Part shown: positions 8,532 through 21,620 of the stretch, in pieces
How the letters are laid out: every line of letters starts with the position of its first letter
Numbering within the stretch: the first letter of the stretch is position 1
NCBI GenBank assembly: GCA_030145325.1
Contig: JAQYVW010000004.1
Location: forward strand, 24,060 to 88,059
Length of the DNA: 64,000 nucleotides
Direction: 5' to 3'
From: Desulfurivibrionaceae bacterium
GTDB lineage: Bacteria; Desulfobacterota; Desulfobulbia; Desulfobulbales; UBA5123
Translations under genes and position numbers: made by a program
The notes under the pieces: generated by a model
Told to the model about the DNA's origin: nothing
Databases searched by the model: none
The model's input: only the letters and a program-made list of their open reading frames with translations

Positions 8532-9869
8532 ATGCCTTGGCAGAAAGTTAAAACTATTCTGAAGAAGTCTCTGTCTGCAAGCGTGTATGCGTTGTGGCTT
8601 GAACCCATTCGTGGAGTTCAGGCAGATGATACTCTGCTCGAGCTCATCTGCCCGGATCAGTTCTTCGCTTCATGGGTTAGCGAGCATTACCTGCCCTTGA
8701 TTCAAGAAAGTCTGGCTCTTGCTGGTCACAGCGGGATTACCGCTCGCTGCGCGTTGCGCCCCAATAATAATCAGGCAATTATTGCCAATGATAGTGGCGC
8801 GCAGTTGCGTCTGCCTTGTGTTCCCGAGCAGCAGCGCTCCACCATCCGGACCTTGCATCCTCGTTATACCTTCGACGAATTCATGGTTGGTGACAGCAAC
8901 GCCATGGCTCATTCCGCCTGTAGCAGCCTGGCTGGTGGTGATACCTCCTTGGGGCGTTGTCTCTATATAGATGCGGGCACCGGCCTGGGCAAAAGCCATC
9001 TCACCCACGCCGTGGCGCACCATGTCACCACCCATACGCCCTCTCTTCGTCTCCAGTATCTCACGGCTCAGCAACTGACCAGTGAAATGGTACGGGCCAT
9101 TAAGGGCAATACCATGGAGCAGTTTAAGGACAAATTTCAAAAACATTGCGATATGTTGTTGATTGAGGATGTGCAGGCTCTCTCCGGTCGGGTCAAGACC
9201 CAGAACGAGCTTGCTGACGCCTTTGATATCCTGATGGAGAGTGGTAAAACCATCGTCCTAACCGGTGGGGTGGCGCCACGGGATATCCCCAATATTGATG
9301 AGGGGATTCGATCCCGGTTTTCTTCCGGGTTGGTGACCTCCATAAACTCACCGGATCTGCATACCCGGGTGATTATCCTCAAACGCAAGGCGCAAAATAA
9401 GGATCTTGCCCTGGACGACGAATTGATCATCTACCTGGCAGAAAGTATCCGTGGTGATGTCCGGCAGTTGGAGAGTGCGGTGATTGGCCTCAAGGCTAAA
9501 TCATGCTTGATGAAGACCCCTCCCGATATGACCATGGCCAAGGAGGTGGTTCGTAATCTCATTGGTCATCAGGTAGAGTTGTCAGCCGAGTCGGTGCGGG
9601 ATTTTGTGGCCCGGCAGTTCAAGGTGGCGGTTAGTGACCTGCGCTCCAAGTCTCGTAAAAAGTCCATCACCTTTCCTCGCCAGGTGGCGATGTACCTCGC
9701 TCGCAAGCATACTGAGCAGGCCTTGAGTGATATCGGTGGTGCTTTTAACCGTGATCACTCCACTGTGGTTCATTCGGTGCGGGTGATCAGCGAGGGGGTT
9801 ACCCGCAACGGCAGTATTCGCGGGCAGCTGGAGCATCTTTCCGATAAGTTGAAAAAAGAGTTGTTGTAG
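8532..9869 (+). CDS. dnaA: chromosomal replication initiator protein DnaA
   Basis: 445 aa. Walker A GTGLGKSHL, Walker B LLIEDVQ, sensor/arginine-finger region, and a C-terminal DNA-binding helix region (VAMYLARKHT...DHSTVVHS). Confidence 0.95.
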   Translation: MPWQKVKTILKKSLSASVYALWLEPIRGVQADDTLLELICPDQFFASWVSEHYLPLIQESLALAGHSGITARCALRPNNNQAIIANDSGAQLRLPCVPEQQRSTIRTLHPRYTFDEFMVGDSNAMAHSACSSLAGGDTSLGRCLYIDAGTGLGKSHLTHAVAHHVTTHTPSLRLQYLTAQQLTSEMVRAIKGNTMEQFKDKFQKHCDMLLIEDVQALSGRVKTQNELADAFDILMESGKTIVLTGGVAPRDIPNIDEGIRSRFSSGLVTSINSPDLHTRVIILKRKAQNKDLALDDELIIYLAESIRGDVRQLESAVIGLKAKSCLMKTPPDMTMAKEVVRNLIGHQVELSAESVRDFVARQFKVAVSDLRSKSRKKSITFPRQVAMYLARKHTEQALSDIGGAFNRDHSTVVHSVRVISEGVTRNGSIRGQLEHLSDKLKKELL

Positions 9870-11358: not shown

Positions 11359-12018
11359 TTAAGTTCTGTTTTTAAGCTGGGCGGTGAGGGTGTCACCGTC
11401 GAATTCGATCTCGATCCAGCCGCCCTGGCTGATCATGCCGGGGTTGATGATGGTGGTGCCACCGATGCGGTCAATACTCTTGGCCTCGTGGATGTGGCCG
11501 GTGAGGCAGAGGGCCGGTTGCTGTTCTTCAATAAAGGCGCGGATGGCTTGGCTGCCCACATGGCTGTGGTTAGGCAAGCGGTCGCAGTTGGTGCCATATG
11601 GCGGAGCGTGGCTGACCAAGATATGGTGGTCGGCGGCGGCGACTTTACTAAACCCTTGCTTGAGAAGGATTGTTATCTCTGGCTCGGAAAACTCATTGGG
11701 GGTTTTAAACGGGGTCGGGTTGGAGCCGCCTACTCCGAAAATGCCGAGATTGTTGAGCGTGGTGCCGGTGCCGTGCAGGCTGATCCCTTGGTTGTGAAGA
11801 TACTTGTTCACTTCCGGTCGGTCAAGGTTGCCGGCCAGGGCGAGAATATTGCTATTGAGCGTGCCGACACTTTGCAACACCTGGGCGGCATCATCGTCGC
11901 CGCCAAAGTTGGTAAGGTCGCCGCTAAGCAGAATAAGGTCTGCGCTCTTGATCCCGGGCACTGTGGTCAAGTTTCCCGGATTCATATGGATGTCGCCGAA
12001 GGCAATTATTCGCATCAT
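11359..12018 (-). CDS. metallophosphoesterase (calcineurin-like)
   Basis: 219 aa. GDIH, SGDLTNFG, GNLD and GHIH metal-ligand motifs in canonical order. Confidence 0.8.
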   Translation of the reverse strand: MMRIIAFGDIHMNPGNLTTVPGIKSADLILLSGDLTNFGGDDDAAQVLQSVGTLNSNILALAGNLDRPEVNKYLHNQGISLHGTGTTLNNLGIFGVGGSNPTPFKTPNEFSEPEITILLKQGFSKVAAADHHILVSHAPPYGTNCDRLPNHSHVGSQAIRAFIEEQQPALCLTGHIHEAKSIDRIGGTTIINPGMISQGGWIEIEFDGDTLTAQLKNRT

Positions 12019-13597: not shown

Positions 13598-13754
13598 TGA
13601 CCACCCTCACCCCGGCCCTCTCCCTGGGGGCGAAGGCCGGGGTGAGGGTGGTCTTTTGGGGGTTGGTGGAGTTTGGGAAGTCTGCCCGAAGCGGGAAAGT
13701 GTTGCGCTCTGGAGTCCCCTCTCCATCAGGGAGAGGGCCAGGGTGAGGGTGGTG
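13598..13754. repeat. GC-rich REP-like element (left border of the island)
   Basis: CCACCCTCACCCCGGCC (13601-13617) pairs with GGCCGGGGTGAGGGTGG (13635-13651). A second GGGAGAGGGCCAGGGTGAGGGTGG arm lies at about 13729-13752. The same motif family recurs at 20657 and 21253. Confidence 0.75.
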
Positions 13755-13799
13755 TCGGTGTTGGGTTGAGCTTTACGCTGTGCATCAATATAAGGAGAT

Positions 13800-16736
13800 A
13801 TGTCGATGGTAGGTGAATTTGCAATTTTTTGGAGTACTCTGCCGCCGGATTTTCGGAATCTGGTTGTTTCTACAGCGGCAAGTCTGGCGGCTGGGTTTCT
13901 TGGTAATAAACAGCCTGAGCTGCTTAAGCCGATGGGGGTGGCCTTCGAAAAGGGTCTACAGGCTTTCCTAGCTTCGTTGGGACAACCCTTCGTCGGTTCC
14001 TTTGGTGAACGCATAGTCCGAGATGTCGAAATAGTCACTTTACTGCGGGAGACCATGAAGGCACCATCCATGGCTGATCATGGGCAAAGGATTAAACAGC
14101 GGCTGGGTGCTTTGGGGGTTGATGGGGCCGTTCTTGCAAGCCTTGATGTTGATCAAGCTGTACGGGAGTTTGTTGAACGGGTCATGGATGAGGTGCGGTA
14201 TGTTCCGGAGTTGTTGCCCCTCCTGCAACTTGAGCGAATGGAGGAATTGATTTGCCTTACGAAAGGCATGCCGCCTGACTTGAGCCGTCTTCAAGAAGAG
14301 TATTTTGGTTGGCTGCGCAACACTTATGGTCGGATCAGGTTCAAGGGATTGAGTAAAAATCCCTTCACTCTGCCCCTGTCCGGGATGTATACCGCACTTA
14401 ATTTGACCGAGGAACGCCATGGCAAAGAAAAAGATGGTGCGGTTGACGATGAGGAAAGTGCTCAGCTTGCTGGGCGCGAAGGGGCAACGAGTTCTATCTC
14501 TTTGGGGGATCTTATTGCGGCGCGCTTTGTTGCCATAACCGGTGGCCCCGGAGCTGGGAAAAGTACGATCTTACGTTACATCGCCCTTGCCTTTGCCGAG
14601 AATGATGCTCAAGAACGGTTGGGTGTTGCCGAGGATCTCTTTCCTGTTCTCTTGCCCGTGTCCGCCTACGCAGAATTTCTTCGAAATGGTGATTCCGTCG
14701 GGGCGGCTCGTTGTTCGTTGCGTGACTTCTTTTCTCTCTATTTTCGTCGCCGGGGACTGCCGGATTTGGAGCCGCTTATCTGCCATGTCGCTCAGCAGGG
14801 TCGGGCGCTTTTTTTGCTTGATGGTCTTGACGAGGTTATTGACGACGGAGAGCGGGCGCGGATCGTGGATGCGGTGCGCGACTGCATGATTGCTGACCAC
14901 GAGGTAGAAAATAGGTATATCATCACCTGTCGAACCGCAAGTTATAACGGTACCAGCCGTTTTGAGCCCTTTGCCGGTCAAGAGTTCCGCCATTGTTTGG
15001 TGCAGCCTTTCGAATTGGCGCAGATCAGCCGTTTTCTCTGGACTTGGTATCATTGGTATGAAACGGAGGTTAATCGAAAGAGGGATGGTGTTGATGAGAA
15101 TGCTGAGCGGTACCGGCAGCGGATGGTTGAGGTCATTGAGCTTGATCGCAATATCTTCGCCATTGCCAGAACCCCGCTCCTTCTTACAATCTTGGTCTTG
15201 ATCGAACAGGAGGGCAACACCCTGCCGAGGAACAGGGCTGAACTGTATGGCAAATGCCTTACCTTACTGGCAGGAGCTTGGGAAGGTATTCGTAGCGAAC
15301 ATGCCCGTGCGGCGGATCGGGAGTATCGGTTGGGGGATTTGCGTATTGACGATGACATGATCGTTGAGATGCTTGGCCCGGTGGCCTTGTCCATGCACCG
15401 CCGTTCTGCCCCTAATATCGGCCATGGTGAGTTGAAGCGGCAGTTTGCCGGGATTTTGGATGAAACCAACCGGAATATGCGCCTATCGCGGCAACAGGCA
15501 GATGATTTTTTGGCCATCTTGGGTCGTCGGAGCGGTATTTTGCAGGAGGTTGCGCCGGGAGTCTATGATTTCATGCATCAAACCTTTCGTGAATATTTGA
15601 TCGCTCGTTATCTGGCCGATGTGGCCGAGGATTATCTAGAGCTGTTGGAGGAGGTACTCCTTAAGGCGGAGTGGCGGGAGGTGGTATTTCTGTTTGTCTC
15701 TTCCCTGAATAAGCGTGACGCTTCAAAATTTGTTGAGCAAATCATGCAACGTCTCGATGCTGGGGTCGCAAATTTAGTTTTGGCTGGTGATATTGTCGTT
15801 GATGTGGGGCCAGAGAAAATAGCACCAAAGGTAGTGGCAGAGTTGATTGTCCGGCTGCGAGATGCACAGGGGGGTGATTGCTCGATGAAGGAGAAGGTGA
15901 GTGTGGCCGAGAGTTTGGGTTGGCTTGGCGTTCATCAAGGGGTTGCCAATATCCGGGAATGTTTTGTTGCCATTGACGGTGGGGAGTACGATCTTAAGGA
16001 GGTGGGTACCGTAACCCTGGATTCTTTTGAGGTTTGCCGTTATCCGGTGATTAACTTGTGGTTTGAAGATTTTGTCCGTGGCAACGACTACGGTCATGAG
16101 GGGTATTGGTCTGCAGAAGGTCGGAAGTGGTTGGCGTATACCAAGGTTGTGGCGCCGCGATTCTGGAATGAGCGGAGATATCGTTGTCCTACCTCGCCGG
16201 TGGTCGGGGTTTGCTGGTATGAAGCCGATGCCTTTTGTCGGTGGTTGACTGCTACTGATAAGGAGGGGTATCTCTATCGATTGTTGACCGAGGAGGAATG
16301 GCAGGCTGTTGCTGCCGGGAGAACGCAGCGGCTCTATCCTTGGGGGGGAGGAGAAGGGGAGGTGTCGAGTAATACAAGTGAAGCGAAGGTTGGTCGGATC
16401 TCGCCGGTGGGTGTTTTTTCTTTGGGGAATACCCCGGAATTTGCAATCAGTGATCTTGGCGGTAATGTTTGGGAGTGGACAAGCTCTGATTATCATCGAA
16501 GGGAGCAGCAAGGTGATTTTTTATTCGATGAGAAGTTGCAGAGGTTTTATGAAGAAGGGGATTGGGGGAGATATGTAAAAGAAATGGAAAACAAAGAAAG
16601 GGGGGTGCCTGTTTTGCGCGGCGGCTCGTGGTTCAATGATCGTGGTTTTGCCCGCTGCGCCGCCCGCCTCAGGGGCCTCCCGAACGACCGGTTCCACAGA
16701 CTGGGTTTTCGTTGCGCCAGGACTTTATTAAGATAG
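13800..16736 (+). CDS. DGR target 1: NACHT (STAND/NLR-like) NTPase with C-terminal FGE-sulfatase / C-type-lectin-fold domain carrying VR1
   Basis: 978 aa. AAGGAG Shine-Dalgarno before the ATG. Walker A ITGGPGAGKST, Walker B ALFLLDGLDEV (NACHT hhhhDGLDE). C-terminal FGE motifs (PVVGVCWYEADAFCRWL, YRLLTEEEWQ, GNVWEWTSSDY, RGGSWFNDRGFARCAARLR...GFRCAR). Confidence 0.9.
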   Translation: MSMVGEFAIFWSTLPPDFRNLVVSTAASLAAGFLGNKQPELLKPMGVAFEKGLQAFLASLGQPFVGSFGERIVRDVEIVTLLRETMKAPSMADHGQRIKQRLGALGVDGAVLASLDVDQAVREFVERVMDEVRYVPELLPLLQLERMEELICLTKGMPPDLSRLQEEYFGWLRNTYGRIRFKGLSKNPFTLPLSGMYTALNLTEERHGKEKDGAVDDEESAQLAGREGATSSISLGDLIAARFVAITGGPGAGKSTILRYIALAFAENDAQERLGVAEDLFPVLLPVSAYAEFLRNGDSVGAARCSLRDFFSLYFRRRGLPDLEPLICHVAQQGRALFLLDGLDEVIDDGERARIVDAVRDCMIADHEVENRYIITCRTASYNGTSRFEPFAGQEFRHCLVQPFELAQISRFLWTWYHWYETEVNRKRDGVDENAERYRQRMVEVIELDRNIFAIARTPLLLTILVLIEQEGNTLPRNRAELYGKCLTLLAGAWEGIRSEHARAADREYRLGDLRIDDDMIVEMLGPVALSMHRRSAPNIGHGELKRQFAGILDETNRNMRLSRQQADDFLAILGRRSGILQEVAPGVYDFMHQTFREYLIARYLADVAEDYLELLEEVLLKAEWREVVFLFVSSLNKRDASKFVEQIMQRLDAGVANLVLAGDIVVDVGPEKIAPKVVAELIVRLRDAQGGDCSMKEKVSVAESLGWLGVHQGVANIRECFVAIDGGEYDLKEVGTVTLDSFEVCRYPVINLWFEDFVRGNDYGHEGYWSAEGRKWLAYTKVVAPRFWNERRYRCPTSPVVGVCWYEADAFCRWLTATDKEGYLYRLLTEEEWQAVAAGRTQRLYPWGGGEGEVSSNTSEAKVGRISPVGVFSLGNTPEFAISDLGGNVWEWTSSDYHRREQQGDFLFDEKLQRFYEEGDWGRYVKEMENKERGVPVLRGGSWFNDRGFARCAARLRGLPNDRFHRLGFRCARTLLR
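16618..16730 (+). other. VR1 (variable repeat) at the 3' end of target 1
   Basis: 113 nt collinear with TR 18210-18322. 14 mismatches, all at TR adenines (AAC>TTC, AAC>CTC, AAC>GGC, CAC>CTC, AAC>GAC, AAC>TTC, AAA>AGA, ATA>TTA, AAA>TTA). Confidence 0.9.
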
Positions 16737-16795
16737 CCCTTTATTCTTTTACCCTTTTACTCTTTGTCCGCCGCAGGCGGGCGCGAATTTTTTTT
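16734..16795 (+). promoter_or_regulatory. conserved post-VR element plus GC hairpin and T-run (candidate DGR homing cis-element and/or terminator)
   Basis: TAGCCCTTTATTCTTTTACCCTTTTACTCT (16734-16763) is 28/30 identical to 20581-20610 after VR2. Followed by the hairpin GTCCGCC-GCA-GGCGGGC (16766-16782) and T8 (16788-16795). Confidence 0.6.
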
Positions 16796-16807: not shown

Positions 16808-17155
16808 ATGGCAAGCGAAGTCGACGCGGTTACCAAGCTCTATGACTACCTGCTCTGGCTGGTGCCCAAGCTGGAGAAATTTCCCCGCCAACAGAAATTT
16901 CTCATTGGTGACCGTTTGGAGACCCTACTCCTCGACATCCTTGATCTGCTGGTGGAGGCGGCATATACCCGCAATAAGGCAGCCTTGCTGCAACGGGCCA
17001 ACATCAAGCTTGAGCAGCTTCGCTATCTGATCCGGCTGGCCAAGGATCTCAAACTACTGTCGTTGAACAGTTACGAATTTTCCGCCCGGGCCATTGATGG
17101 GATTGGCACCTCGGTTGGCGGCTGGCTCAGGTATGCACGACATGAAAAGTTATAA
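16808..17155 (+). CDS. avd: DGR accessory variability determinant (Avd; four-helix-bundle protein)
   Basis: 115 aa from the internal ATG of ORF 16712..17155. KLYDYLLWLVPKLEKFPRQQKFLIGDRLETLLLDILDLLVEAAY...LRYLIRLAKDLKLLS matches the Avd/four-helix-bundle pattern. Overlaps the RT start by 14 nt. Confidence 0.85.
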   Translation: MASEVDAVTKLYDYLLWLVPKLEKFPRQQKFLIGDRLETLLLDILDLLVEAAYTRNKAALLQRANIKLEQLRYLIRLAKDLKLLSLNSYEFSARAIDGIGTSVGGWLRYARHEKL

Positions 17156-18203
17156 TCATCTCTTTGGGCAAATTACCTCTTTTGACAACCTGCTGCTGGC
17201 TGCCCGTAAGGCCCAGAAGGGTAAGCGTTTCAAGGCGGGATGCGCTCGTTTCAATTTCAACCTGGAGGGACAATTACTCAAGCTCCAGCGGGAGTTGCTG
17301 GCGGGCAGTTATCGTCATGGCCGCTATCGCGATTTTTTTATCAACGATCCCAAGCGGCGGTTGATCAGTGCCGCGTCCTATCGGAATCGGGTGGTGCACC
17401 ATGCTCTTTGTAATGTTATCGAACCCCTCTTTGACCGCTCCTTTATTCATGACTCCTATGCTTGTCGAACCGGCAAGGGCACCCACGCGGCCGTGGATCG
17501 TTACACCCATTATGCCCGTAAGTACCGTTACGTGCTCAAGTGTGACATCCGTAAATACTTTCCCTCTGTGGATCAACAGATCCTGTTGGCAATGATCGTT
17601 AAAAAGATCCGTTGCCAACCAACCATGGCGCTGATTACCGAGATCGTCTCCTCCCGCCGCGACCATGGCTGCGGGTTCCATTTCTCGGGCGATAATCTTT
17701 TCACCCCCCTTGAGCGGCAGCGGGGGCTTCCCATTGGCAACTTGACCAGCCAGTTCTTCGCCAACCTTTATCTGGACGGCTTTGATCATTGGGTTAAGGA
17801 AGAGCTGCGTTTGCCTTATCTCCGTTATGTGGATGACTGGGTTGTCTTTGCCAATGATAAGGTGTTGCTGGGCGAGACCCTGGTTCAGATGAAGGAATAT
17901 CTGGCCGGGTTGCGCTTGCGTCTGCATGCCAATAAATGCCGCGTCTACCGGGTGGATGAGGGCGTCCGTTTCCTGGGTTACCGTATTTTTCCAGATCATC
18001 GTCTACTGGACAAGGGCAATGTGTTACGGGCCAGGCGACGATTCAAGAAGTTGTGTTGTCGGTACCGAGATCGCGAGATATCGTTTGCCGCTGTGCATCA
18101 AAGCATTCAGAGCTGGGTGGGCCATGCTTCCCATGCCGATACCTATCGGTTGCGGGGCAGGCTGCTCGGTGAGGTGCGCTTGCAAAGGGGGCCGGGTCTA
18201 TAA
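17142..18203 (+). CDS. DGR-type reverse transcriptase
   Basis: ORF 17094..18203, start set at ATG 17142 (MKSYNHLF). RT motifs include LPIGNLTSQFFANLYL (the [I/L]GxxxSQ signature of DGR RTs) and the catalytic YVDD (LRYVDDWVVF). No maturase or endonuclease extension. Confidence 0.9.
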   Translation: MKSYNHLFGQITSFDNLLLAARKAQKGKRFKAGCARFNFNLEGQLLKLQRELLAGSYRHGRYRDFFINDPKRRLISAASYRNRVVHHALCNVIEPLFDRSFIHDSYACRTGKGTHAAVDRYTHYARKYRYVLKCDIRKYFPSVDQQILLAMIVKKIRCQPTMALITEIVSSRRDHGCGFHFSGDNLFTPLERQRGLPIGNLTSQFFANLYLDGFDHWVKEELRLPYLRYVDDWVVFANDKVLLGETLVQMKEYLAGLRLRLHANKCRVYRVDEGVRFLGYRIFPDHRLLDKGNVLRARRRFKKLCCRYRDREISFAAVHQSIQSWVGHASHADTYRLRGRLLGEVRLQRGPGL

Positions 18204-18209
18204 ACGGGT

Positions 18210-18322
18210 GCGGCGGCTCGTGGAACAATGATCGTGGTTTTGCCCGCTGCGCCGCCCGCAACAGGAACCACCCGAACAACCGGAACCACAAACTGGGTTT
18301 TCGTTGCGCCAGGACTATAAAA
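18210..18322 (+). ncRNA. DGR template repeat (TR)
   Basis: Starts 6 nt after the RT stop. 113 nt with 28 adenines, many in AAC codons. Would encode GGSWNNDRGFARCAARNRNHPNNRNHKLGFRCARTIK. Collinear with VR1 and VR2. Confidence 0.9.
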
Positions 18323-18435
18323 GCGTTTTTTCGTCGGAGCCTTAACTTTCATGGAGGTTAGGGGAGTGCGATTCTTGAAGTCCAGGCCCTGCTCCTGTGT
18401 CGGCTGCAATTGGTCGACCGAAACAATAACCACCT

Positions 18436-18486
18436 CCTGTCGGGCTGGTAGTCCCGTGGGCGAACGTCCGGCAGGGGGATTTTTTA
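18436..18486 (+). terminator. candidate rho-independent terminator of the avd-RT-TR transcript
   Basis: CCTGTCGG (18436-18443) pairs with CCGGCAGG (18468-18475, one G-U pair), followed by GGGGATTTTTT. Confidence 0.45.
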
Positions 18487-18528
18487 CTCTTTTAAAAACA
18501 TCCGTTCCGACCATAACGAGGAGCAAGA

Positions 18529-20583
18529 ATGGTACACCGTCTTAATTTTGTTTCCGATATCCATTGTAGCGAGGATCAGCTCGGTTTTGCCAGATACGTC
18601 AACACCCTGGCCGCCATGATCGGGGAGGAGGGGTTTACCACCCCGTTTTGTATCGGCATCTATGGCGATTGGGGCAGCGGCAAGACCAGTTTCATGCATC
18701 AGTTGCAGAAGCGGGTGAAGGAGGATGGCGGCGAAACCCATATGGTGCCGGTCTGGTTCAACCCCTGGCGGTATGAGAAGGAAGAGCATCTCATCATCCC
18801 CTTTTTGAAGACCATCGAGAAGAGTCTGGCGGCAGCGCCTAAAGGATTGGCTCCCGAGGTGGCGGCAAAACTCAAGGATGCAGCCGCGGCAGTGGGCCGG
18901 GTGGCCGCCGCCTTTGCCTATGGCTTGAATGTGGAATGGAAGCTGGGTGGTCTGAAGGCGGTCTTTGATGCCTCCAAGGCCGTGGGTCGTGAGGAAGAGC
19001 TTGCCGAGCGGCGGCGCAAGGAGGCTACGGCTCTTGCTGAGACCTTGTCGTCGCTCTACTACGACGCCATCAATGAACTTCAGCTTGATGAGCATGAAGA
19101 GGCGTTTCGCATCGTGGTCTTCATCGACGATCTTGATCGTTGCCTGCCGGAAAAGGCGGTGGAGTTGCTGGAGGCGATCAAGCTTTTCCTAGACCTCAAA
19201 GGCTACCTCTTTATCATCGGGGTGGCCAAAGAGGTGGTGGAGAAAGGGATTCGGCATCGCTATCGGTTTCTTGACGACGGTAAGGGCGGGCAAGAGGTGG
19301 TCAAGCCCGAGGCCTATCTGGACAAGATGATCCAGATGCCCTTGCAGTTGCCGCGTGTGGAAGCGGGCCGCAAGCGGGATTACCTCAATACGCTCTTTAA
19401 AGGTGCGGAGTTCGAGCCGGAGGTGCGGGAGGTAATTTTTAAACTGGTCGAAACCGCCATCGGTGACAACCCCAGGGCATTAAAGCGGTATGTCAACCTC
19501 TTGGCCTTCACGGCCCGGCTTGCCCAGGCGGTGAAGGATGAGCTTCTGCAAAAGGAAGAGGAGTCGCCGGAGCATAAAGAGTTGCTGGAGGCGCATTTTG
19601 TGCCGGTGCAGTACGCCAAATGGACCACCATTGTTTTTAAGTTTTCCCGCGATTATCAGGATATCAGGGGCAACTGGCAGCGATTGCTGCGTTTGCAGGA
19701 AGCTGCCTTGGACAAGGGGGAGGAGCAGGCAGGGGGTGTCGGCAGTGAGGGTGAGAAGAAGAATCTCACCATTTCATCGACGTTACGGAAGATTCTCGCC
19801 GTGAAGCCGCATTTTCCTGAGGATAAATGGTTGATCGATTGTTTCATTAATCTCAATGAATCAACCTTGGCCAGTGGCGAGGCCAAGGAGACTTCCGGTG
19901 CCAGCCGACATTATCGGCCTGGGGATATGGTTCGCATCCCGGCGGGTGAGTTTCTCTATGGTGAGGCCAAGGAGCCGACAACCATTGACCACGATTATCT
20001 GATTGATGTCTTTCCGGTGACCAACAGTATCTATAAGGAGTTCCTGGATGCCAATTTGGGACATGATGTTCCCTTTGTGGATCAGTCGTGGGCGCAGCCG
20101 TATAATTGGGACAAGGAAAAACGGCTTTTTCCGGTTGGTAAGGATGATCATCCGGTGGTGCTGGTGTCGTATGAGGATGCGCTGGCGTTCTGCCGGTGGC
20201 GGAGCGAAAAAGAGGGTGGGGAATTTCGGTTGCCCAGCGAGGAGGAGTGGGAAAAGGCGGCCCGGGGCACTGATGGTCGCCAATACCCTTGGGGCGAGGA
20301 GTTTGCTCAGGAGCGTTGTAATACCGAGGAAGCCGGAATTGGCGAAACCACCCCGGTGGATCGGTACCCGGAAGGGCGGGGGGTGTTTGACTGCATGGAT
20401 ATGGTCGGCAACGTTTGGGAGTGGACTGGTAGTTGGTTTGATGATGATAAGGATTTGAAGGTGCTGCGCGGCGGCTCGTGGAACTTTGATCGTGGTTTTG
20501 CCCGCTGCGCCGCCCGCCTCAGGTACCCTCCGAACAACCGGGACCACATTCTGGGTTTTCGTTGCGCCAGGACCATAAAATAG
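18529..20583 (+). CDS. DGR target 2: KAP-family P-loop NTPase with C-terminal FGE-sulfatase / C-type-lectin-fold domain carrying VR2
   Basis: 684 aa. GAGGAG Shine-Dalgarno. KAP hallmarks IGIYGDWGSGKTSF (Walker A) and VVFIDDLDRCLPEKAVELLEAIKLFL (Walker B). FGE motifs (HPVVLVSYEDALAFCRW, FRLPSEEEWEKAARG, GNVWEWTGSWF, RGGSWNFDRGFARCAARLR...GFRCAR). Confidence 0.9.
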   Translation: MVHRLNFVSDIHCSEDQLGFARYVNTLAAMIGEEGFTTPFCIGIYGDWGSGKTSFMHQLQKRVKEDGGETHMVPVWFNPWRYEKEEHLIIPFLKTIEKSLAAAPKGLAPEVAAKLKDAAAAVGRVAAAFAYGLNVEWKLGGLKAVFDASKAVGREEELAERRRKEATALAETLSSLYYDAINELQLDEHEEAFRIVVFIDDLDRCLPEKAVELLEAIKLFLDLKGYLFIIGVAKEVVEKGIRHRYRFLDDGKGGQEVVKPEAYLDKMIQMPLQLPRVEAGRKRDYLNTLFKGAEFEPEVREVIFKLVETAIGDNPRALKRYVNLLAFTARLAQAVKDELLQKEEESPEHKELLEAHFVPVQYAKWTTIVFKFSRDYQDIRGNWQRLLRLQEAALDKGEEQAGGVGSEGEKKNLTISSTLRKILAVKPHFPEDKWLIDCFINLNESTLASGEAKETSGASRHYRPGDMVRIPAGEFLYGEAKEPTTIDHDYLIDVFPVTNSIYKEFLDANLGHDVPFVDQSWAQPYNWDKEKRLFPVGKDDHPVVLVSYEDALAFCRWRSEKEGGEFRLPSEEEWEKAARGTDGRQYPWGEEFAQERCNTEEAGIGETTPVDRYPEGRGVFDCMDMVGNVWEWTGSWFDDDKDLKVLRGGSWNFDRGFARCAARLRYPPNNRDHILGFRCARTIK
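20468..20580 (+). other. VR2 (variable repeat) at the 3' end of target 2
   Basis: 113 nt collinear with TR. 9 mismatches at TR adenines (AAT>TTT, AAC>CTC, AAC>TAC, CAC>CCT, AAC>GAC, AAA>ATT). 2 non-adenine differences (C>T at 20529, T>C at 20574). Confidence 0.85.
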
Positions 20584-20610
20584 CCCTTTGCTCTTTTACC
20601 CTTTTACTCT
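20581..20610 (+). promoter_or_regulatory. second copy of the conserved post-VR element
   Basis: TAGCCCTTTGCTCTTTTACCCTTTTACTCT, 28/30 identical to 16734-16763. Absent after TR. Confidence 0.6.
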
Positions 20611-20656
20611 CTGCTCTGGTCGGAGCTGGGCGGTTTTCGGTTGGTGGGAACGGTTT

Positions 20657-20904
20657 TGACCACCCTCACCCCGGCCCTCTCCCTGAGGGCGAGGGAGTGG
20701 CTTCGAGCGGTTTATGGGGGGAGGGCTTTTAGTTCGGTGGAGTTTGGGGGCGCGGGAAAGGCGAGTGCTGGAGCCGATGCCCGCAAGGCCTGGCCCGGTA
20801 ATTTGTTGTCATCCCATCCAGATGCCACCTGGGATGCAGAAACGGTACAACCTATCTCGGCAACGTCCCCTCGCCCCAAGCGGGGAGAGGGCCAGGGTGA
20901 GGGG
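20657..20904. repeat. ~240-bp GC-rich repeat, copy A (upstream of DUF559)
   Basis: Starts TGACCACCCTCACCCCGGCCCTCTCCCTGAGGGCGAGGGAGTGGCTTCGAGC and ends GGGGAGAGGGCCAGGGTGAGGGG. Collinear with 21253-21489 apart from scattered mismatches and indels. Confidence 0.8.
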
Positions 20905-20907
20905 AGA

Positions 20908-21255
20908 ATGAATAAGAACACCACCATTGCCAGAAAACTCCGTCGCCAACAAACCGATGCCGAACAAATACTCTGGCAACGGCTCCGTAGCCGCCAACTT
21001 GCCGGCTGCAAGTTTCGCCGCCAGCATCCGGTGGGGCCATATGTGGTTGATTTCGTCTGTCTCAAACAAGGACTGGTGGTGGAACTTGACGGCAGTCAGC
21101 ATGCCTTGCCTGAGGAAGTGGTTAAGGATGCGAAACGAACCGCCTATCTCGAAGCGGAGGGCTTTCGGGTGCTGCGCTTCTGGAATAACGAGGTGTTTGG
21201 CGAGATCGAGGCGTTGTTGACGCGGATTTTGGCGGCGCTGGTGGAGGGACGATGA
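20908..21255 (+). CDS. DUF559 endonuclease-like protein (Vsr-like fold)
   Basis: ORF 20641..21255 trimmed to the ATG at 20908 (MNKNTTIARKLRRQQTDAEQILWQRLR...FRRQHPVGPYVVDFVC...VELDGSQH...RVLRFWNNEV), the typical DUF559 pattern. The upstream part of the ORF is a translated repeat. Confidence 0.8.
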   Translation: MNKNTTIARKLRRQQTDAEQILWQRLRSRQLAGCKFRRQHPVGPYVVDFVCLKQGLVVELDGSQHALPEEVVKDAKRTAYLEAEGFRVLRFWNNEVFGEIEALLTRILAALVEGR

Positions 21256-21489
21256 CCACCCTCACCCCGGCCCTCTCCCTGAGGGCGAGGGAGTGGCTTC
21301 GAGCAGTTATGGGGGGAGGGCTTTTAGTTTGGGGGAGTTGGAAAGGCAAGTGCTGGAGCAGGTGCCTAGGCGGCCAGCTCGGTAATGTGTCATCATTCCA
21401 GCCAACTGCCACCTGGGATGCAGAAACGGTATAACCTATCTCGGCAACGTCCCCTCGCCCCAGTGGGGAGAGGGCCAGGGTGAGGGGGG
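21253..21489. repeat. ~240-bp GC-rich repeat, copy B (downstream of DUF559)
   Basis: Same 5' and 3' ends as copy A. Begins within the DUF559 stop codon. Confidence 0.8.
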
Positions 21490-21544: not shown

Positions 21545-21620
21545 TGGTGGGCGATACGGGATTCGAACCTGTGACTTCCACCGTGTGAAGGTGGCACTCT
21601 AACCACTGAGTTAATCGCCC
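21545..21620 (-). tRNA. tRNA-Val (anticodon CAC)
   Basis: The reverse complement GGGCGATTAACTCAGTGGTTAGAGTGCCACCTTCACACGGTGGAAGTCACAGGTTCGAATCCCGTATCGCCCACCA folds as a cloverleaf. 7-bp acceptor stem, anticodon loop TTCACAC, GTTCGAATC T-loop, encoded CCA. Confidence 0.9.

What the first reader, a model, noticed from the sequence alone, without database searches (positions are those of the whole stretch)
18210..18322. Adenine-specific TR-to-VR mismatch pattern, with different substitution sets in the two VRs
Manual alignment: TR 18210-18322 (113 nt, 28 adenines) is collinear with VR1 16618-16730 (offset -1592) and VR2 20468-20580 (offset +2258). VR1 has 14 mismatches, all at TR adenines (TR positions 18224, 18225, 18260, 18261, 18266, 18267, 18270, 18278, 18284, 18285, 18291, 18317, 18320, 18321). 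VR2 has 9 mismatches at TR adenines (18227, 18228, 18260, 18261, 18266, 18270, 18284, 18291, 18292), plus two non-adenine differences (C>T at 20529, T>C at 20574). The TR is rich in AAC codons and would encode NNDRGFARCAARNRNHPNNRNHK. The corresponding codons read F-N, L-R-G-L, D, F, R in VR1 and N-F, L-R-Y-P, N, D, I in VR2. Different outcomes at the same template adenines imply at least two independent mutagenic homing events, so the element has been active. The two non-A changes in VR2 may be ordinary point mutations acquired since its last homing event.
Basis: seen in the sequence. Interest (0 to 1): 0.85.

Follow-up and report, generated by a model that had tools for sequence, protein, structure and literature searches.

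The report
Two-target diversity-generating retroelement, NTPase-lectin sensors

Summary
TR 18210-18322 is collinear with VR1 16618-16730 and VR2 20468-20580. VR1 has 14 mismatches, all at TR adenines. VR2 has 9 at adenines plus C>T and T>C.

The locus is a canonical DGR cassette: target1 (unknown N-domain + NACHT + FGE-type C-lectin), avd, RT, TR, a structured spacer RNA, then target2 (KAP NTPase + C-lectin). The two lectin domains are only 37% identical outside the VR, so recent duplication is excluded.

One correction. Spacer pairing and 35 TR-VR pairs from related elements predict that cDNA synthesis starts near 18307-18311. The three 3'-most VR1 "A" mismatches and the VR2 T>C therefore lie in the IMH-like tail and are probably ordinary divergence. 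The core still gives 11/11 (VR1) and 9/10 (VR2) mismatches at adenines.

RT relatives have the same layout and the same target types. Doré et al. 2024 describe such two-target STAND/KAP-CLec elements in their RT clade 5D; I could not place this RT in that tree. I rate it a new member of a known kind.

The only possibly new detail is a VR-flank-specific tandem CTTTTAC motif conserved across phyla.

Ongoing activity could not be tested, because no other sample carries this element.

The parts
13800..16736 (+). Target gene 1 (978 aa; the public gene call starts at ATG 13806). Residues 1-217 form a rare all-helical N-terminal domain of unknown function. A NACHT/STAND NTPase covers about aa 218-416, and an FGE-sulfatase-type C-lectin domain covers aa 734-974. 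VR1 lies at the C-terminus.
   Evidence: Pfam hits: NACHT 9.8e-9 and FGE-sulfatase 2.5e-34. The N-domain has only 9 hits in 1.84 billion representative proteins. Its AF2 model has pLDDT 66, is all-alpha, and has no Foldseek match with E<1.
16618..16730 (+). VR1. The variable core 16632-16700 corresponds to TR 18224-18292. 11 of 21 core template adenines are substituted and 0 of 73 core non-A positions differ.
16738..16782 (+). VR1 3' flank, after the stop codon and absent from the TR. It holds tandem 8-nt units CCTTTATT/CTTTTACC/CTTTTACT/CTTTG, then a GC-rich hairpin at 16766-16782 (7-bp stem, loop GCA) followed by a T-run. This is the candidate IMH-type target-recognition element, and the hairpin may double as the target1 terminator.
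   Evidence: (D4)
16808..17155 (+). avd (115 aa), the accessory variability determinant.
   Evidence: NF033474 DivGenRetAVD scores 107.1 bits against a cut-off of 80. Pfam bAvd E = 2.3e-17.
17133..18203 (+). DGR reverse transcriptase (356 aa from ATG 17133; the public call starts at ATG 17142, 353 aa). It overlaps the end of avd.
   Evidence: RVT_1 E = 6.6e-26. The best solved relative is 8ub7_A (bRT), E = 7.8e-63 over residues 5-340, against 1.6e-20 for a group II RT. The motifs LKCDIRKYFPS, LPIGNLTSQFFANLY and YVDDWVV are kept.
18210..18322 (+). Template repeat (TR), non-coding. It has 28 A, mostly in AAC/AAT codons of the VR frame. The core 18210-18307 holds 21 A. The tail 18308-18322 pairs with the spacer and is IMH*-like.
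18323..18490 (+). Spacer (Sp-like) structured RNA 3' of the TR.
- Hairpin 18340-18363, the candidate Avd-binding stem-loop.
- Segment AAGUCCAGGC at 18378-18387, which pairs with the TR tail GCCAGGACU at 18308-18316 (template:primer duplex analogue).
- A long hairpin 18433-18442/18469-18478 with an inner helix 18451-18453/18459-18461 and the conserved UGGUAG...CGAAC motif.
- A U-run at about 18481-18486.
   Evidence: Alignment of 22 loci and RNAalifold. Pair counts: 87.5% of cells paired against 38-52% in slid controls; covariation score 0.77 against 0.13-0.27. Covarying TR-tail:Sp duplexes are. Coordinates were mapped.
18529..20583 (+). Target gene 2 (684 aa): a KAP-family P-loop NTPase at aa 21-331, a helical linker, and an FGE-type C-lectin domain at aa 466-681. 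VR2 lies at the C-terminus.
   Evidence: Pfam KAP_NTPase 1.6e-42 and FGE-sulfatase 3.2e-47. QatA/PifA-like in PADLOC. AF2 pLDDT 82.6. Foldseek matches TvpA 2y3c (E = 1.2e-10) and the RdrA KAP ATPase. At least 120 full-length KAP-CLec homologues exist at 38-57% identity.
20468..20580 (+). VR2. The variable core is 20482-20550. 9 of 21 core adenines are substituted. There is one core non-A change (C>T at 20529, synonymous) and one tail change (T>C at 20574, synonymous).
20585..20626 (+). VR2 3' flank. It carries the same CCTTTGCT/CTTTTACC/CTTTTACT motif as VR1 (89% identical over 38 nt). It is followed only by a weak hairpin at 20613-20626 (5 bp including a G-T pair, 4-nt loop).
   Evidence: (D4)

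Best explanation
The segment is the template repeat of a chromosomal diversity-generating retroelement that serves two target genes.

Shown:
- The gene order is target1 - avd - RT - TR - structured spacer - target2.
- Both targets end in an FGE-type C-lectin domain. The last ~38 codons of each (VR1, VR2) are copies of the TR that differ from it almost only where the TR has adenine.
- VR1 and VR2 carry different substitution sets.

Inferred from the Bordetella-phage paradigm and from covariation among relatives:
- avd-RT-TR-spacer is transcribed as one RNA.
- The spacer folds. A hairpin at 18340-18363 is the likely Avd-binding stem-loop, and a long hairpin at 18433-18478 follows.
- The spacer segment AAGUCCAGGC pairs with the TR tail GCCAGGACU, placing the RT for cis-primed cDNA synthesis that starts near 18307-18311 and runs 5'-ward.
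- The RT misincorporates opposite about half of the 21 core adenines.
- The cDNA replaces the homologous VR in either target. Direction is set by the invariant 3' segment (CTGGGTTTTCGTTGCGCCAGGAC) plus VR-only flanking DNA (tandem CTTTTAC units and a hairpin).
- This can randomise 13 codons (18224-18292), giving about 6.6e11 peptide variants per target, on the predicted ligand-binding face of each lectin domain.

The targets have the layout of NLR-like (NACHT) and KAP-NTPase conflict-system proteins, with the lectin domain in the sensor position. The most likely biological role is therefore a hypervariable intracellular sensor pair, as proposed but not yet tested for this lineage of DGRs.
For: - A-specific mismatches. 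In the core, VR1 has 11/11 and VR2 9/10 at A, with 0/73 and 1/73 non-A changes.
- The two VRs differ at 12 of 21 core adenines.
- Protein parts: Avd above its curated cut-off; RT most similar to bRT with the catalytic motifs kept; NACHT, KAP and FGE-sulfatase domains; the C-lectin fold matches the DGR variable protein TvpA.
- The lectin domains are only 37% identical outside the VR. The 113-nt identity is therefore maintained from the TR and is not left over from a duplication.
- The spacer RNA covaries: 87.5% of cells are paired against 38-52% in slid controls, and all 17 pairs show double changes.
- TR-tail:spacer duplexes covary across loci.
- In 35 TR-VR pairs from relatives, 56% of core A are changed against 12% of tail A. 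Non-A positions change at 0.7% in the core and 4.2% in the tail.
- The same architecture and target types occur in RT relatives from several phyla. L091 has the same KAP + NACHT pair.
- Literature: two-target DGRs make up 13% of the total, and IMH/IMH* are near-universal (PMC5758913). Clade 5D DGRs commonly have two CLec targets with central STAND or KAP NTPases (PMC10907252). Conserved RNA elements downstream of the TR are described in bioRxiv 10.1101/2023.10.23.563531.
Against: - No direct evidence of current activity. The TR/VR sequence was found in no other genome or metagenome contig and the closest RT is 69% identical, so population-level VR variation could not be examined.
- Both VRs share the same AAC>CTC change at 18260-18261. 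This could reflect selection, chance, or a shared history, so the two VRs may not be fully independent.
- The spacer fold of this sequence alone is not significantly more stable than shuffles (z = -1.2). Support for the structure comes from covariation only.
- The cDNA start site is inferred by analogy. VR1 has 3 of 7 tail adenines changed, more than the 12% seen in relatives. A start further 3' in this element is therefore not excluded.
- The sensor/immune role is a published hypothesis with no experimental support. The effector of target1 (the N-domain) is unidentified.
Confidence: 0.88

Rival explanations
1. Fossil DGR. The cassette once diversified both targets but is no longer active, and the VRs are frozen records of old homing events.
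For: VR2 carries two non-adenine changes and has only a weak downstream hairpin. No population data exist. The AAA codon at 18290 can mutate to stop codons, so uncontrolled activity would carry a cost.
Against: - avd, RT and both targets are uninterrupted ORFs with catalytic motifs intact.
- The spacer RNA keeps every covarying helix.
- The VR1 core has 0 of 73 non-A differences from the TR, and VR2 has 1 of 73. This matches the 0.7% seen across relatives, so little time has passed since the last homing.
- Both non-A changes are synonymous.
Confidence: 0.1
2. An ordinary three-copy repeat left by a recent duplication or gene conversion, with random drift and no retroelement involvement.
For: There are three collinear 113-nt copies at 88-90% identity.
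Against: - Mismatches fall on TR adenines with p = 1.5e-10 and 4.4e-5.
- The direction is asymmetric: only the non-coding copy has the adenines.
- Homology ends abruptly, and the surrounding lectin domains are only 37% identical in protein.
- An Avd and a bRT-like RT lie between the copies.
Confidence: 0.01
3. It is a real DGR, but the diversified NTPase-lectin proteins are not immune sensors. They could instead serve regulatory signalling, kin or self recognition within a multicellular or aggregate lifestyle, or binding of an environmental ligand.
For: - Cyanobacterial DGR targets have been interpreted as regulatory (PMC7517822, listed).
- No recognisable effector domain is present. The target1 N-domain has no match and target2 has none N-terminal to KAP.
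- No defence-system model covers either protein as a whole. PADLOC gives only domain-level KAP hits and P-loop-only hits.
- The neighbouring genes are housekeeping (cobO, M48 peptidases, MTHFR, dnaA).
Against: - In relatives the same NACHT/KAP-CLec chassis is fused to caspase, trypsin or metallophosphoesterase domains, typical of conflict systems.
- The KAP domain resembles QatA, PifA and RdrA defence ATPases.
- Published comparative work places this architecture among conflict systems.
Confidence: 0.3

Closest known systems
Bordetella phage BPP-1 DGR (mtd-avd-TR-brt), the prototype
   Same: - An Avd plus a bRT-like RT (E = 7.8e-63 to 8ub7).
- A-specific TR-to-VR differences.
- The VR at the C-terminus of a C-lectin-fold protein.
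- An invariant GC-containing 3' segment, then TR/VR divergence (IMH/IMH*), and a hairpin after VR1.
- A structured RNA 3' of the TR whose segment pairs with the TR tail, matching the cis-priming model.
   Different: - The element is chromosomal, not phage (dnaA, cobO and MTHFR are neighbours).
- The gene order is avd-RT-TR, with the TR after the RT.
- There are two targets.
- The targets are cytoplasmic-looking NTPase fusions, not a tail fibre.
- The lectin domain is of the FGE/TvpA subtype.
- The RT has an insertion of about 20 residues relative to bRT.
- The VR flank carries a CTTTTAC tandem motif.
Clade 5D cellular DGRs of Doré et al. 2024 (for example Thiohalocapsa PB-PSB1 DGR 3 and DGR 6), PMC10907252
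   Same: - Two targets, each with a single C-terminal CLec/FGE domain and a central STAND NTPase (NACHT). Some relatives use KAP NTPases.
- N-terminal extensions without known domains.
- MITE-like elements at the locus borders.
(window)
   Different: - The host is a Desulfobulbia-like Desulfobacterota (DnaA at most 56% identical to any species representative), and that paper has no 'Desulf' mention.
- The two chassis types are mixed here (NACHT and KAP served by one TR).
- Phylogenetic placement of this RT inside clade 5D was not tested.
Treponema denticola TvpA (PDB 2y3c), a DGR variable protein with an FGE-type C-lectin fold
   Same: The AF2 model of the target2 lectin domain superposes on 2y3c (Foldseek E = 1.2e-10, TM 0.64 normalised to the target, rmsd 3.7 Å). 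The VR lies at the C-terminal end of the fold.
   Different: TvpA is a lipoprotein without an NTPase module. Sequence identity is only 22%.
KAP-family defence ATPases (QatA of the Qat system, PifA, RdrA of RADAR) and bacterial NACHT/Avs NLR-like proteins
   Same: The target2 N-terminal half matches QatA, PifA and PDC-S20 profiles (E down to 5.6e-34; 9.2e-41 to NF041923) and RdrA by fold. Target1 has the tripartite order N-domain - NACHT - C-terminal sensor.
   Different: Scores are far below the full-length curated cut-offs (140 against 600 bits for QatA). The partner genes of those systems are absent. The sensor is a DGR-diversified lectin domain rather than TPR or other repeats.

Membership tests
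Diversity-generating retroelement (DGR) | TR/VR repeat pair whose differences are concentrated at TR adenines | tested here: met
   VR1 has 14/14 mismatches at A, and VR2 has 9/11. In the core the figures are 11/11 and 9/10, with p = 3e-9 and 1.6e-6.
Diversity-generating retroelement (DGR) | DGR-type reverse transcriptase adjacent to the TR | tested here: met
   The best PDB relative is bRT 8ub7 (E = 7.8e-63, full length) against 1.6e-20 for a group II RT. IGNLTSQ and YVDD are present. The score is below cut-off for the group II maturase, retron and Drt models. The TR starts 7 nt after the RT stop.
Diversity-generating retroelement (DGR) | Accessory protein Avd | tested here: met
   NF033474 scores 107.1 bits against a cut-off of 80. 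Pfam bAvd scores 63.9 bits against a cut-off of 40. There was no PDB sequence hit.
Diversity-generating retroelement (DGR) | VR at the C-terminus of a C-lectin-fold (or Ig-fold) target protein | tested here: met
   FGE-sulfatase domain E = 2.5e-34 and 3.2e-47, reaching the last residues. The AF2 model matches TvpA 2y3c.
Diversity-generating retroelement (DGR) | IMH at the VR 3' end, differing from IMH* at the TR, with an optional downstream inverted repeat | tested here: met
   An invariant 3' segment is followed by TR/VR divergence. A 38-nt VR-only flank is 89% identical between the two VRs and absent from the TR. VR1 has a GC hairpin, while VR2 has only a weak one. Function was not tested.
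Diversity-generating retroelement (DGR) | Structured RNA flanking the TR that positions a template:primer duplex | tested here: met
   Covariation in 17 pairs over 22 loci. A covarying TR-tail:spacer duplex is seen. The priming nucleotide was not identified.
Diversity-generating retroelement (DGR) | Ongoing mutagenic retrohoming (VR heterogeneity within a population, or cDNA) | not testable with these tools
   There is no second copy of this element in genome or metagenome collections, and exact-protein look-ups were empty.
RT clade 5D DGRs diversifying STAND/KAP NTPase-CLec sensors (Doré et al. 2024) | Two targets with a single C-terminal CLec domain and a central STAND (NACHT/nSTAND1) or KAP NTPase | tested here: met
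   for the window. Searches show the same in RT relatives. The description is quoted.
RT clade 5D DGRs diversifying STAND/KAP NTPase-CLec sensors (Doré et al. 2024) | RT falls inside clade 5D in a phylogeny with the reference set | not tested
Only the shared architecture of RT relatives was examined.
RT clade 5D DGRs diversifying STAND/KAP NTPase-CLec sensors (Doré et al. 2024) | Host with a multicellular or aggregate lifestyle | not testable with these tools
   The host is known only as Desulfobulbia-like, from DnaA similarity of 55-56%. One relative is from the filamentous Ca. Vecturithrix (L155).
Bacterial NLR-like antiviral STAND (NACHT/Avs) proteins | Tripartite effector - STAND NTPase - sensor architecture that confers phage defence | tested here: inconclusive
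   The domain order is present in target1. The N-domain has no identifiable effector fold. PADLOC gives only P-loop-level hits. The defence phenotype was not tested.

The most novel reading that the evidence does not exclude
The tandem (C/T)CTTTTAC units lying 5-27 nt after the VR may be the lineage-specific DNA address tag, the functional IMH. They are found after both VRs here and in 19 of 42 VR flanks of related DGRs from at least six phyla. They occur in only 1 of 34 TR flanks and 0.3% of background windows. The tag would let one TR be delivered to unrelated genes and would distinguish recipient from donor. If so, target choice in this major cellular DGR lineage would be predictable and portable. 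The weaker hairpin behind VR2 would then explain unequal diversification of the two sensors.
Probability: 0.35. Interest if true: 0.55.

Novelty: new member of a known kind. Interest (0 to 1): 0.35.

Why it matters
The locus adds a clean, fully intact example from a poorly sampled Desulfobulbia-like lineage to the recently described class of cellular DGRs that hypermutate NLR-like NTPase-lectin proteins. Here one template serves two different signalling chassis, NACHT and KAP.

Such loci are the best bacterial candidates for an anticipatory, antibody-like sensing system. However, the concept and the architecture are already published, so this instance does not change the picture.

The comparative by-products are useful for annotation and for designing reconstitution experiments:
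- a covarying spacer RNA;
- a predicted cDNA start that sets the 3' limit of mutagenesis;
- a VR-flank-specific CTTTTAC tandem motif.

Tried and rejected
1. Other samples. I searched for the same TR/VR in other genomes and metagenomes, using an A-masked 50-mer and an A-free 28-mer, and found no hits. Exact-protein look-ups of RT and Avd were also empty. The suggested comparison of VRs across samples could not be done.

2. Rfam. No family matches the TR or spacer region. The only hits are a tRNA and spurious sub-threshold matches on the MITE hairpin.

3. Single-sequence fold of the spacer. It is not more stable than shuffles (z = -1.2). DNA folds of the VR flanks are likewise not significant on their own.

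4. Target1 N-terminal domain.
   - The word-indexed search found nothing.
   - The exhaustive HMMER search found only 8 relatives, several of them full-length NACHT-CLec orthologues of similar length.
   - The AF2 model is all-alpha with pLDDT 66.
   - Foldseek gives no match below E = 1. The top hits are Bcl-xL at E = 1.1 and probability 0.18, so I reject any Bcl-2-like reading.

5. Neighbouring metallophosphoesterase (11359-12015) as a detached effector. I tested whether it relates to the Metallophos domains fused to targets in L081/L082. BLASTP gives E = 0.045, and cobO plus a MITE lie between it and the cassette. Rejected.

6. Same-sense copy of the CTTTTAC motif at the spacer 3' end (18481) as an R-loop anchor. 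It is not conserved in 32 other loci. Rejected as chance, or as part of the terminator U-run.

7. The MITE-like inverted repeat as a general feature of these DGRs. It is absent from all 160 fetched loci.

Full report
**1. The observation**

An alignment of the three segments, the repeat finder (family D1) and a position-by-position script reproduce the finding exactly.
- TR 18210-18322 (113 nt: 28 A, 35 C, 31 G, 19 T) is collinear without gaps with 16618-16730 (offset -1592) and 20468-20580 (offset +2258).
- VR1 differs at 14 positions, all TR adenines (9 A>T, 4 A>G, 1 A>C).
- VR2 differs at 9 adenines, plus C>T (18271/20529) and T>C (18316/20574).
- The chance that this many mismatches fall on A is 1.5e-10 for VR1 and 4.4e-5 for VR2 (hypergeometric).
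- Immediately outside the 113 nt the copies mismatch at a near-random rate.
- A degenerate search finds only these three copies in the window.

**2. What surrounds it**

The cassette reads as follows:
- target1, 13800-16736;
- avd, 16808-17155;
- RT, 17133-18203;
- TR, starting 7 nt after the RT stop;
- a 206-nt non-coding spacer;
- target2, 18529-20583.

Avd passes the curated NCBIfam cut-off for DGR Avd (107 against 80 bits).

The RT's closest solved relative is the Bordetella-phage bRT of the cryo-EM RNP (8ub7, E = 7.8e-63 over the whole length). The motifs LKxD, IGxLTSQ and YxDD are kept. A group II RT scores only 1.6e-20.

Target1 has three parts: a rare N-terminal domain, a NACHT/STAND NTPase, and an FGE-sulfatase-type C-lectin domain. 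Target2 is a KAP-family P-loop NTPase followed by the same type of lectin domain.
- An AlphaFold model of target2 (pLDDT 82.6) matches FGE-family structures, including the DGR variable protein TvpA (2y3c, E = 1.2e-10).
- Its N-terminal half matches the RADAR KAP ATPase RdrA.
- PADLOC and NCBIfam give domain-level QatA/PifA similarity only.

The neighbours are housekeeping genes: dnaA at 8532-9866, cobO, M48 peptidases and MTHFR. The element is therefore chromosomal. DnaA is at most 55-56% identical to Desulfobulbia genomes.

**3. Duplication is excluded**

Outside the VR the two lectin domains share only 37% protein identity, with several indels. The last 113 nt are 88-90% identical to the TR. 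That discontinuity, the one-directional A-to-N pattern, and the presence of Avd and RT between the copies leave retrohoming from a single TR as the only reasonable source.

The two VRs differ from each other at 12 of the 21 core adenine positions. At least two distinct cDNAs have therefore been installed. Both VRs share AAC>CTC at 18260-18261. This may reflect selection for Leu, coincidence or shared history, so they may not be fully independent.

**4. Where mutagenesis stops: a correction to the tally**

I fetched 80 loci encoding relatives of the RT and detected A-biased TR/VR pairs in most of them.

*Layout of relatives.* In the closest relatives the TR lies directly after the RT and a VR lies about 1.6 kb upstream. 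In L082, L091, L144 and L155 a second VR lies downstream, the same layout as here.

*Conserved spacer RNA.* The DNA 3' of the TR aligns across 22 loci from several phyla and folds into conserved helices.
- 87.5% of cells are paired, against 38-52% when partners are slid.
- The covariation score is 0.77, against 0.13-0.27.
- All 17 pairs show double compensatory changes.

In window coordinates the helices are 18340-18343/18360-18363, 18433-18442/18469-18478 and 18451-18453/18459-18461. The first is the base of a stem-loop just downstream of the TR, like the Avd-binding stem-loops of Handa et al..

*Template:primer duplex.* A conserved spacer segment (AAGUCCAGGC, 18378-18387) pairs with the TR tail (GCCAGGACU, 18308-18316). 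The pairing covaries among loci:
- GGACUUGG with CCAAGUCC in L081;
- GGGACUGC with GCAGUCC in L095 and L097;
- GGGAUGUG with CACUUCC in L144.

*Counts in relatives.* Across 35 TR-VR pairs, 56% of adenines 5' of the conserved GGNTTYCG motif are substituted, but only 12% of adenines 3' of it. Non-adenine differences are 0.7% in the core and 4.2% in the tail.

*Consequence for this locus.* The tail behaves as IMH/IMH*, not as mutagenised template. The VR1 differences at 18317, 18320 and 18321, and the VR2 T>C at 18316, lie in or beyond the predicted duplex. The local TR sequence there is ATAAAA, so mismatches fall on A almost by default (p = 0.08). I therefore count them as probable ordinary divergence.

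The core figures are 11/11 (p = 3e-9) and 9/10 (p = 1.6e-6), with 52% and 43% of the 21 core adenines changed. That is typical of the clade. The single core non-A change (C>T next to a mutated A) and the tail T>C are both synonymous.

**5. Target-site features**

After the stop codon both VRs are followed by a pyrimidine-rich element that is 89% identical between them and absent from the TR. It consists of tandem 8-nt units around CTTTTAC.

The 15-mer CTTTTACCCTTTTAC occurs at different rates in different contexts:

| Context | Matches with 3 or fewer mismatches |
|---|---|
| 70 nt after related VRs | 19 of 42 |
| TR flanks | 1 of 34 |
| Random windows | 0.3% |

Hosts with the motif include Desulfobacterota, Poribacteria, Bacteroidota, Verrucomicrobiota and Ca. 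Vecturithrix.

Within the 64-kb window the motif is found only at the two VR flanks, apart from one weak copy in the spacer terminator tail. That copy is not conserved elsewhere.

VR1 is then followed by a 7-bp GC hairpin and a T-run (16766-16782). VR2 has only a 5-bp hairpin.

A text search found no paper that mentions this motif together with DGRs. That search covers only open-access text. IMH elements and GC inverted repeats are known in general, so I treat the motif as a candidate lineage-specific IMH component, untested.

**6. Comparison with what is known**

- Wu et al. 2018 report two targets in 13% of DGRs, near-universal IMH/IMH*, and occasional non-A differences that can differ between targets.
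- Kaur et al. 2020 linked DGR-diversified FGS/lectin domains to NTPase conflict systems.
- Doré et al. [quoted passage not shown] They note that many have uncharacterised N-terminal extensions and that MITE-like elements and transposons shape the loci.

Pfam scans of ten targets from RT relatives gave NACHT-CLec, KAP-CLec, caspase-CLec, trypsin-NACHT-CLec and metallophos-NACHT-CLec. L091 carries the same KAP + NACHT pair. KAP-CLec proteins form a large family, with at least 120 full-length homologues at 38-57% identity. Their consensus is conserved except at the VR positions.

This locus is therefore a new member of a described kind. Formal placement of the RT in clade 5D was not tested.

**7. 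Function**

Shown: the parts, the A-specific rewriting of two genes, and the conserved RNA.

Inferred: the order of events (transcription, cis-priming near 18307-18311, mutagenic cDNA synthesis, replacement of either VR). Also inferred is that the 13 variable codons, giving about 6.6e11 peptide variants (core codons only), lie on a ligand-binding surface.

The AAA codon at 18290 can yield stop codons, so a fraction of homing events would truncate the last ten residues.

The biological role as a hypervariable cytoplasmic sensor coupled to NTPase switches is a published hypothesis. I find it the most likely reading but could not test it. The target1 N-domain is found in only 9 of 1.84 billion representative proteins. 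It is all-helical and matches no solved structure.

**8. Verdict**

Novelty: a new member of a known kind. Interest is moderate to low for a specialist. The CTTTTAC address-tag idea is the only part that could be new.

Noticed in passing
window 13598-13755, 20657-20906, 21253-21489: Three copies of a MITE-like element with terminal inverted repeats of about 36 bp (TGACCACCCTCACCCCGGCCCTCTCCCTG ... GGGAGAGGGCCAGGGTGAGGG). In the 64-kb window it occurs only at the two borders of the DGR cassette. It is absent from all 160 related loci fetched. It may mark the cassette as a mobilised or recombination-prone island. Rfam's sub-threshold 'mir-3099' hit at 13599-13653 is simply its hairpin.
   Followed up: partly
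window 20909-21255 (+), listed as ORF 20641-21255: A DUF559 / Vsr-like endonuclease-fold ORF (Pfam E = 1.2e-41) sits between two of the MITE-like copies, directly downstream of target2. The long ORF's N-terminal 90 codons are just the translated repeat.
   Followed up: partly
window 21545-21620 (-): A tRNA-Val(CAC) gene lies immediately beyond the repeat/DUF559 block. It is a possible island boundary or integration site for the DGR-containing segment.
   Followed up: no
window 16738-16768 and 20585-20610; L081-L157 VR flanks: A tandem (C/T)CTTTTAC motif lies downstream of VRs in this RT lineage across phyla. It matches 19 of 42 VR flanks, against 1 of 34 TR flanks and 0.3% of background windows. 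I did not find it in the searchable literature.
   Followed up: yes
window 13800-14450 (target1 residues 1-217): The N-terminal domain is all-helical and very rare, with 9 hits in 1.84 billion representative proteins; several of these are full-length NACHT-CLec orthologues. It has a conserved FW..LP.D...F.VS motif at the extreme N-terminus and no structural match. It occupies the effector position of an NLR-like protein.
   Followed up: partly
window 18260-18261 / 16668-16669 / 20518-20519: Both VRs carry the identical double substitution AAC>CTC (Asn>Leu). This could be selection at a scaffold-adjacent position, coincidence, or shared history of the two VRs.
   Followed up: no
window 8532-9866 and the whole window: dnaA lies 4 kb upstream of the cassette. 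GC skew is nevertheless positive across all 64 kb, on both sides of dnaA, so no skew switch (origin) is visible next to dnaA.
   Followed up: no
L082:5287-5400: In a related Desulfobacteraceae locus, the upstream VR aligns to its TR with a 1-nt gap and no long ORF covers it. This may be a decayed first target, while the downstream metallophos-NACHT-CLec target is intact.
   Followed up: no
window 17640-17700 (RT residues about 170-190): The RT carries an insertion of about 20 residues (RDHGCGFHFSGDNLFTPLERQR) relative to Bordetella bRT, just before the IGNLTSQ motif (alignment).
   Followed up: no
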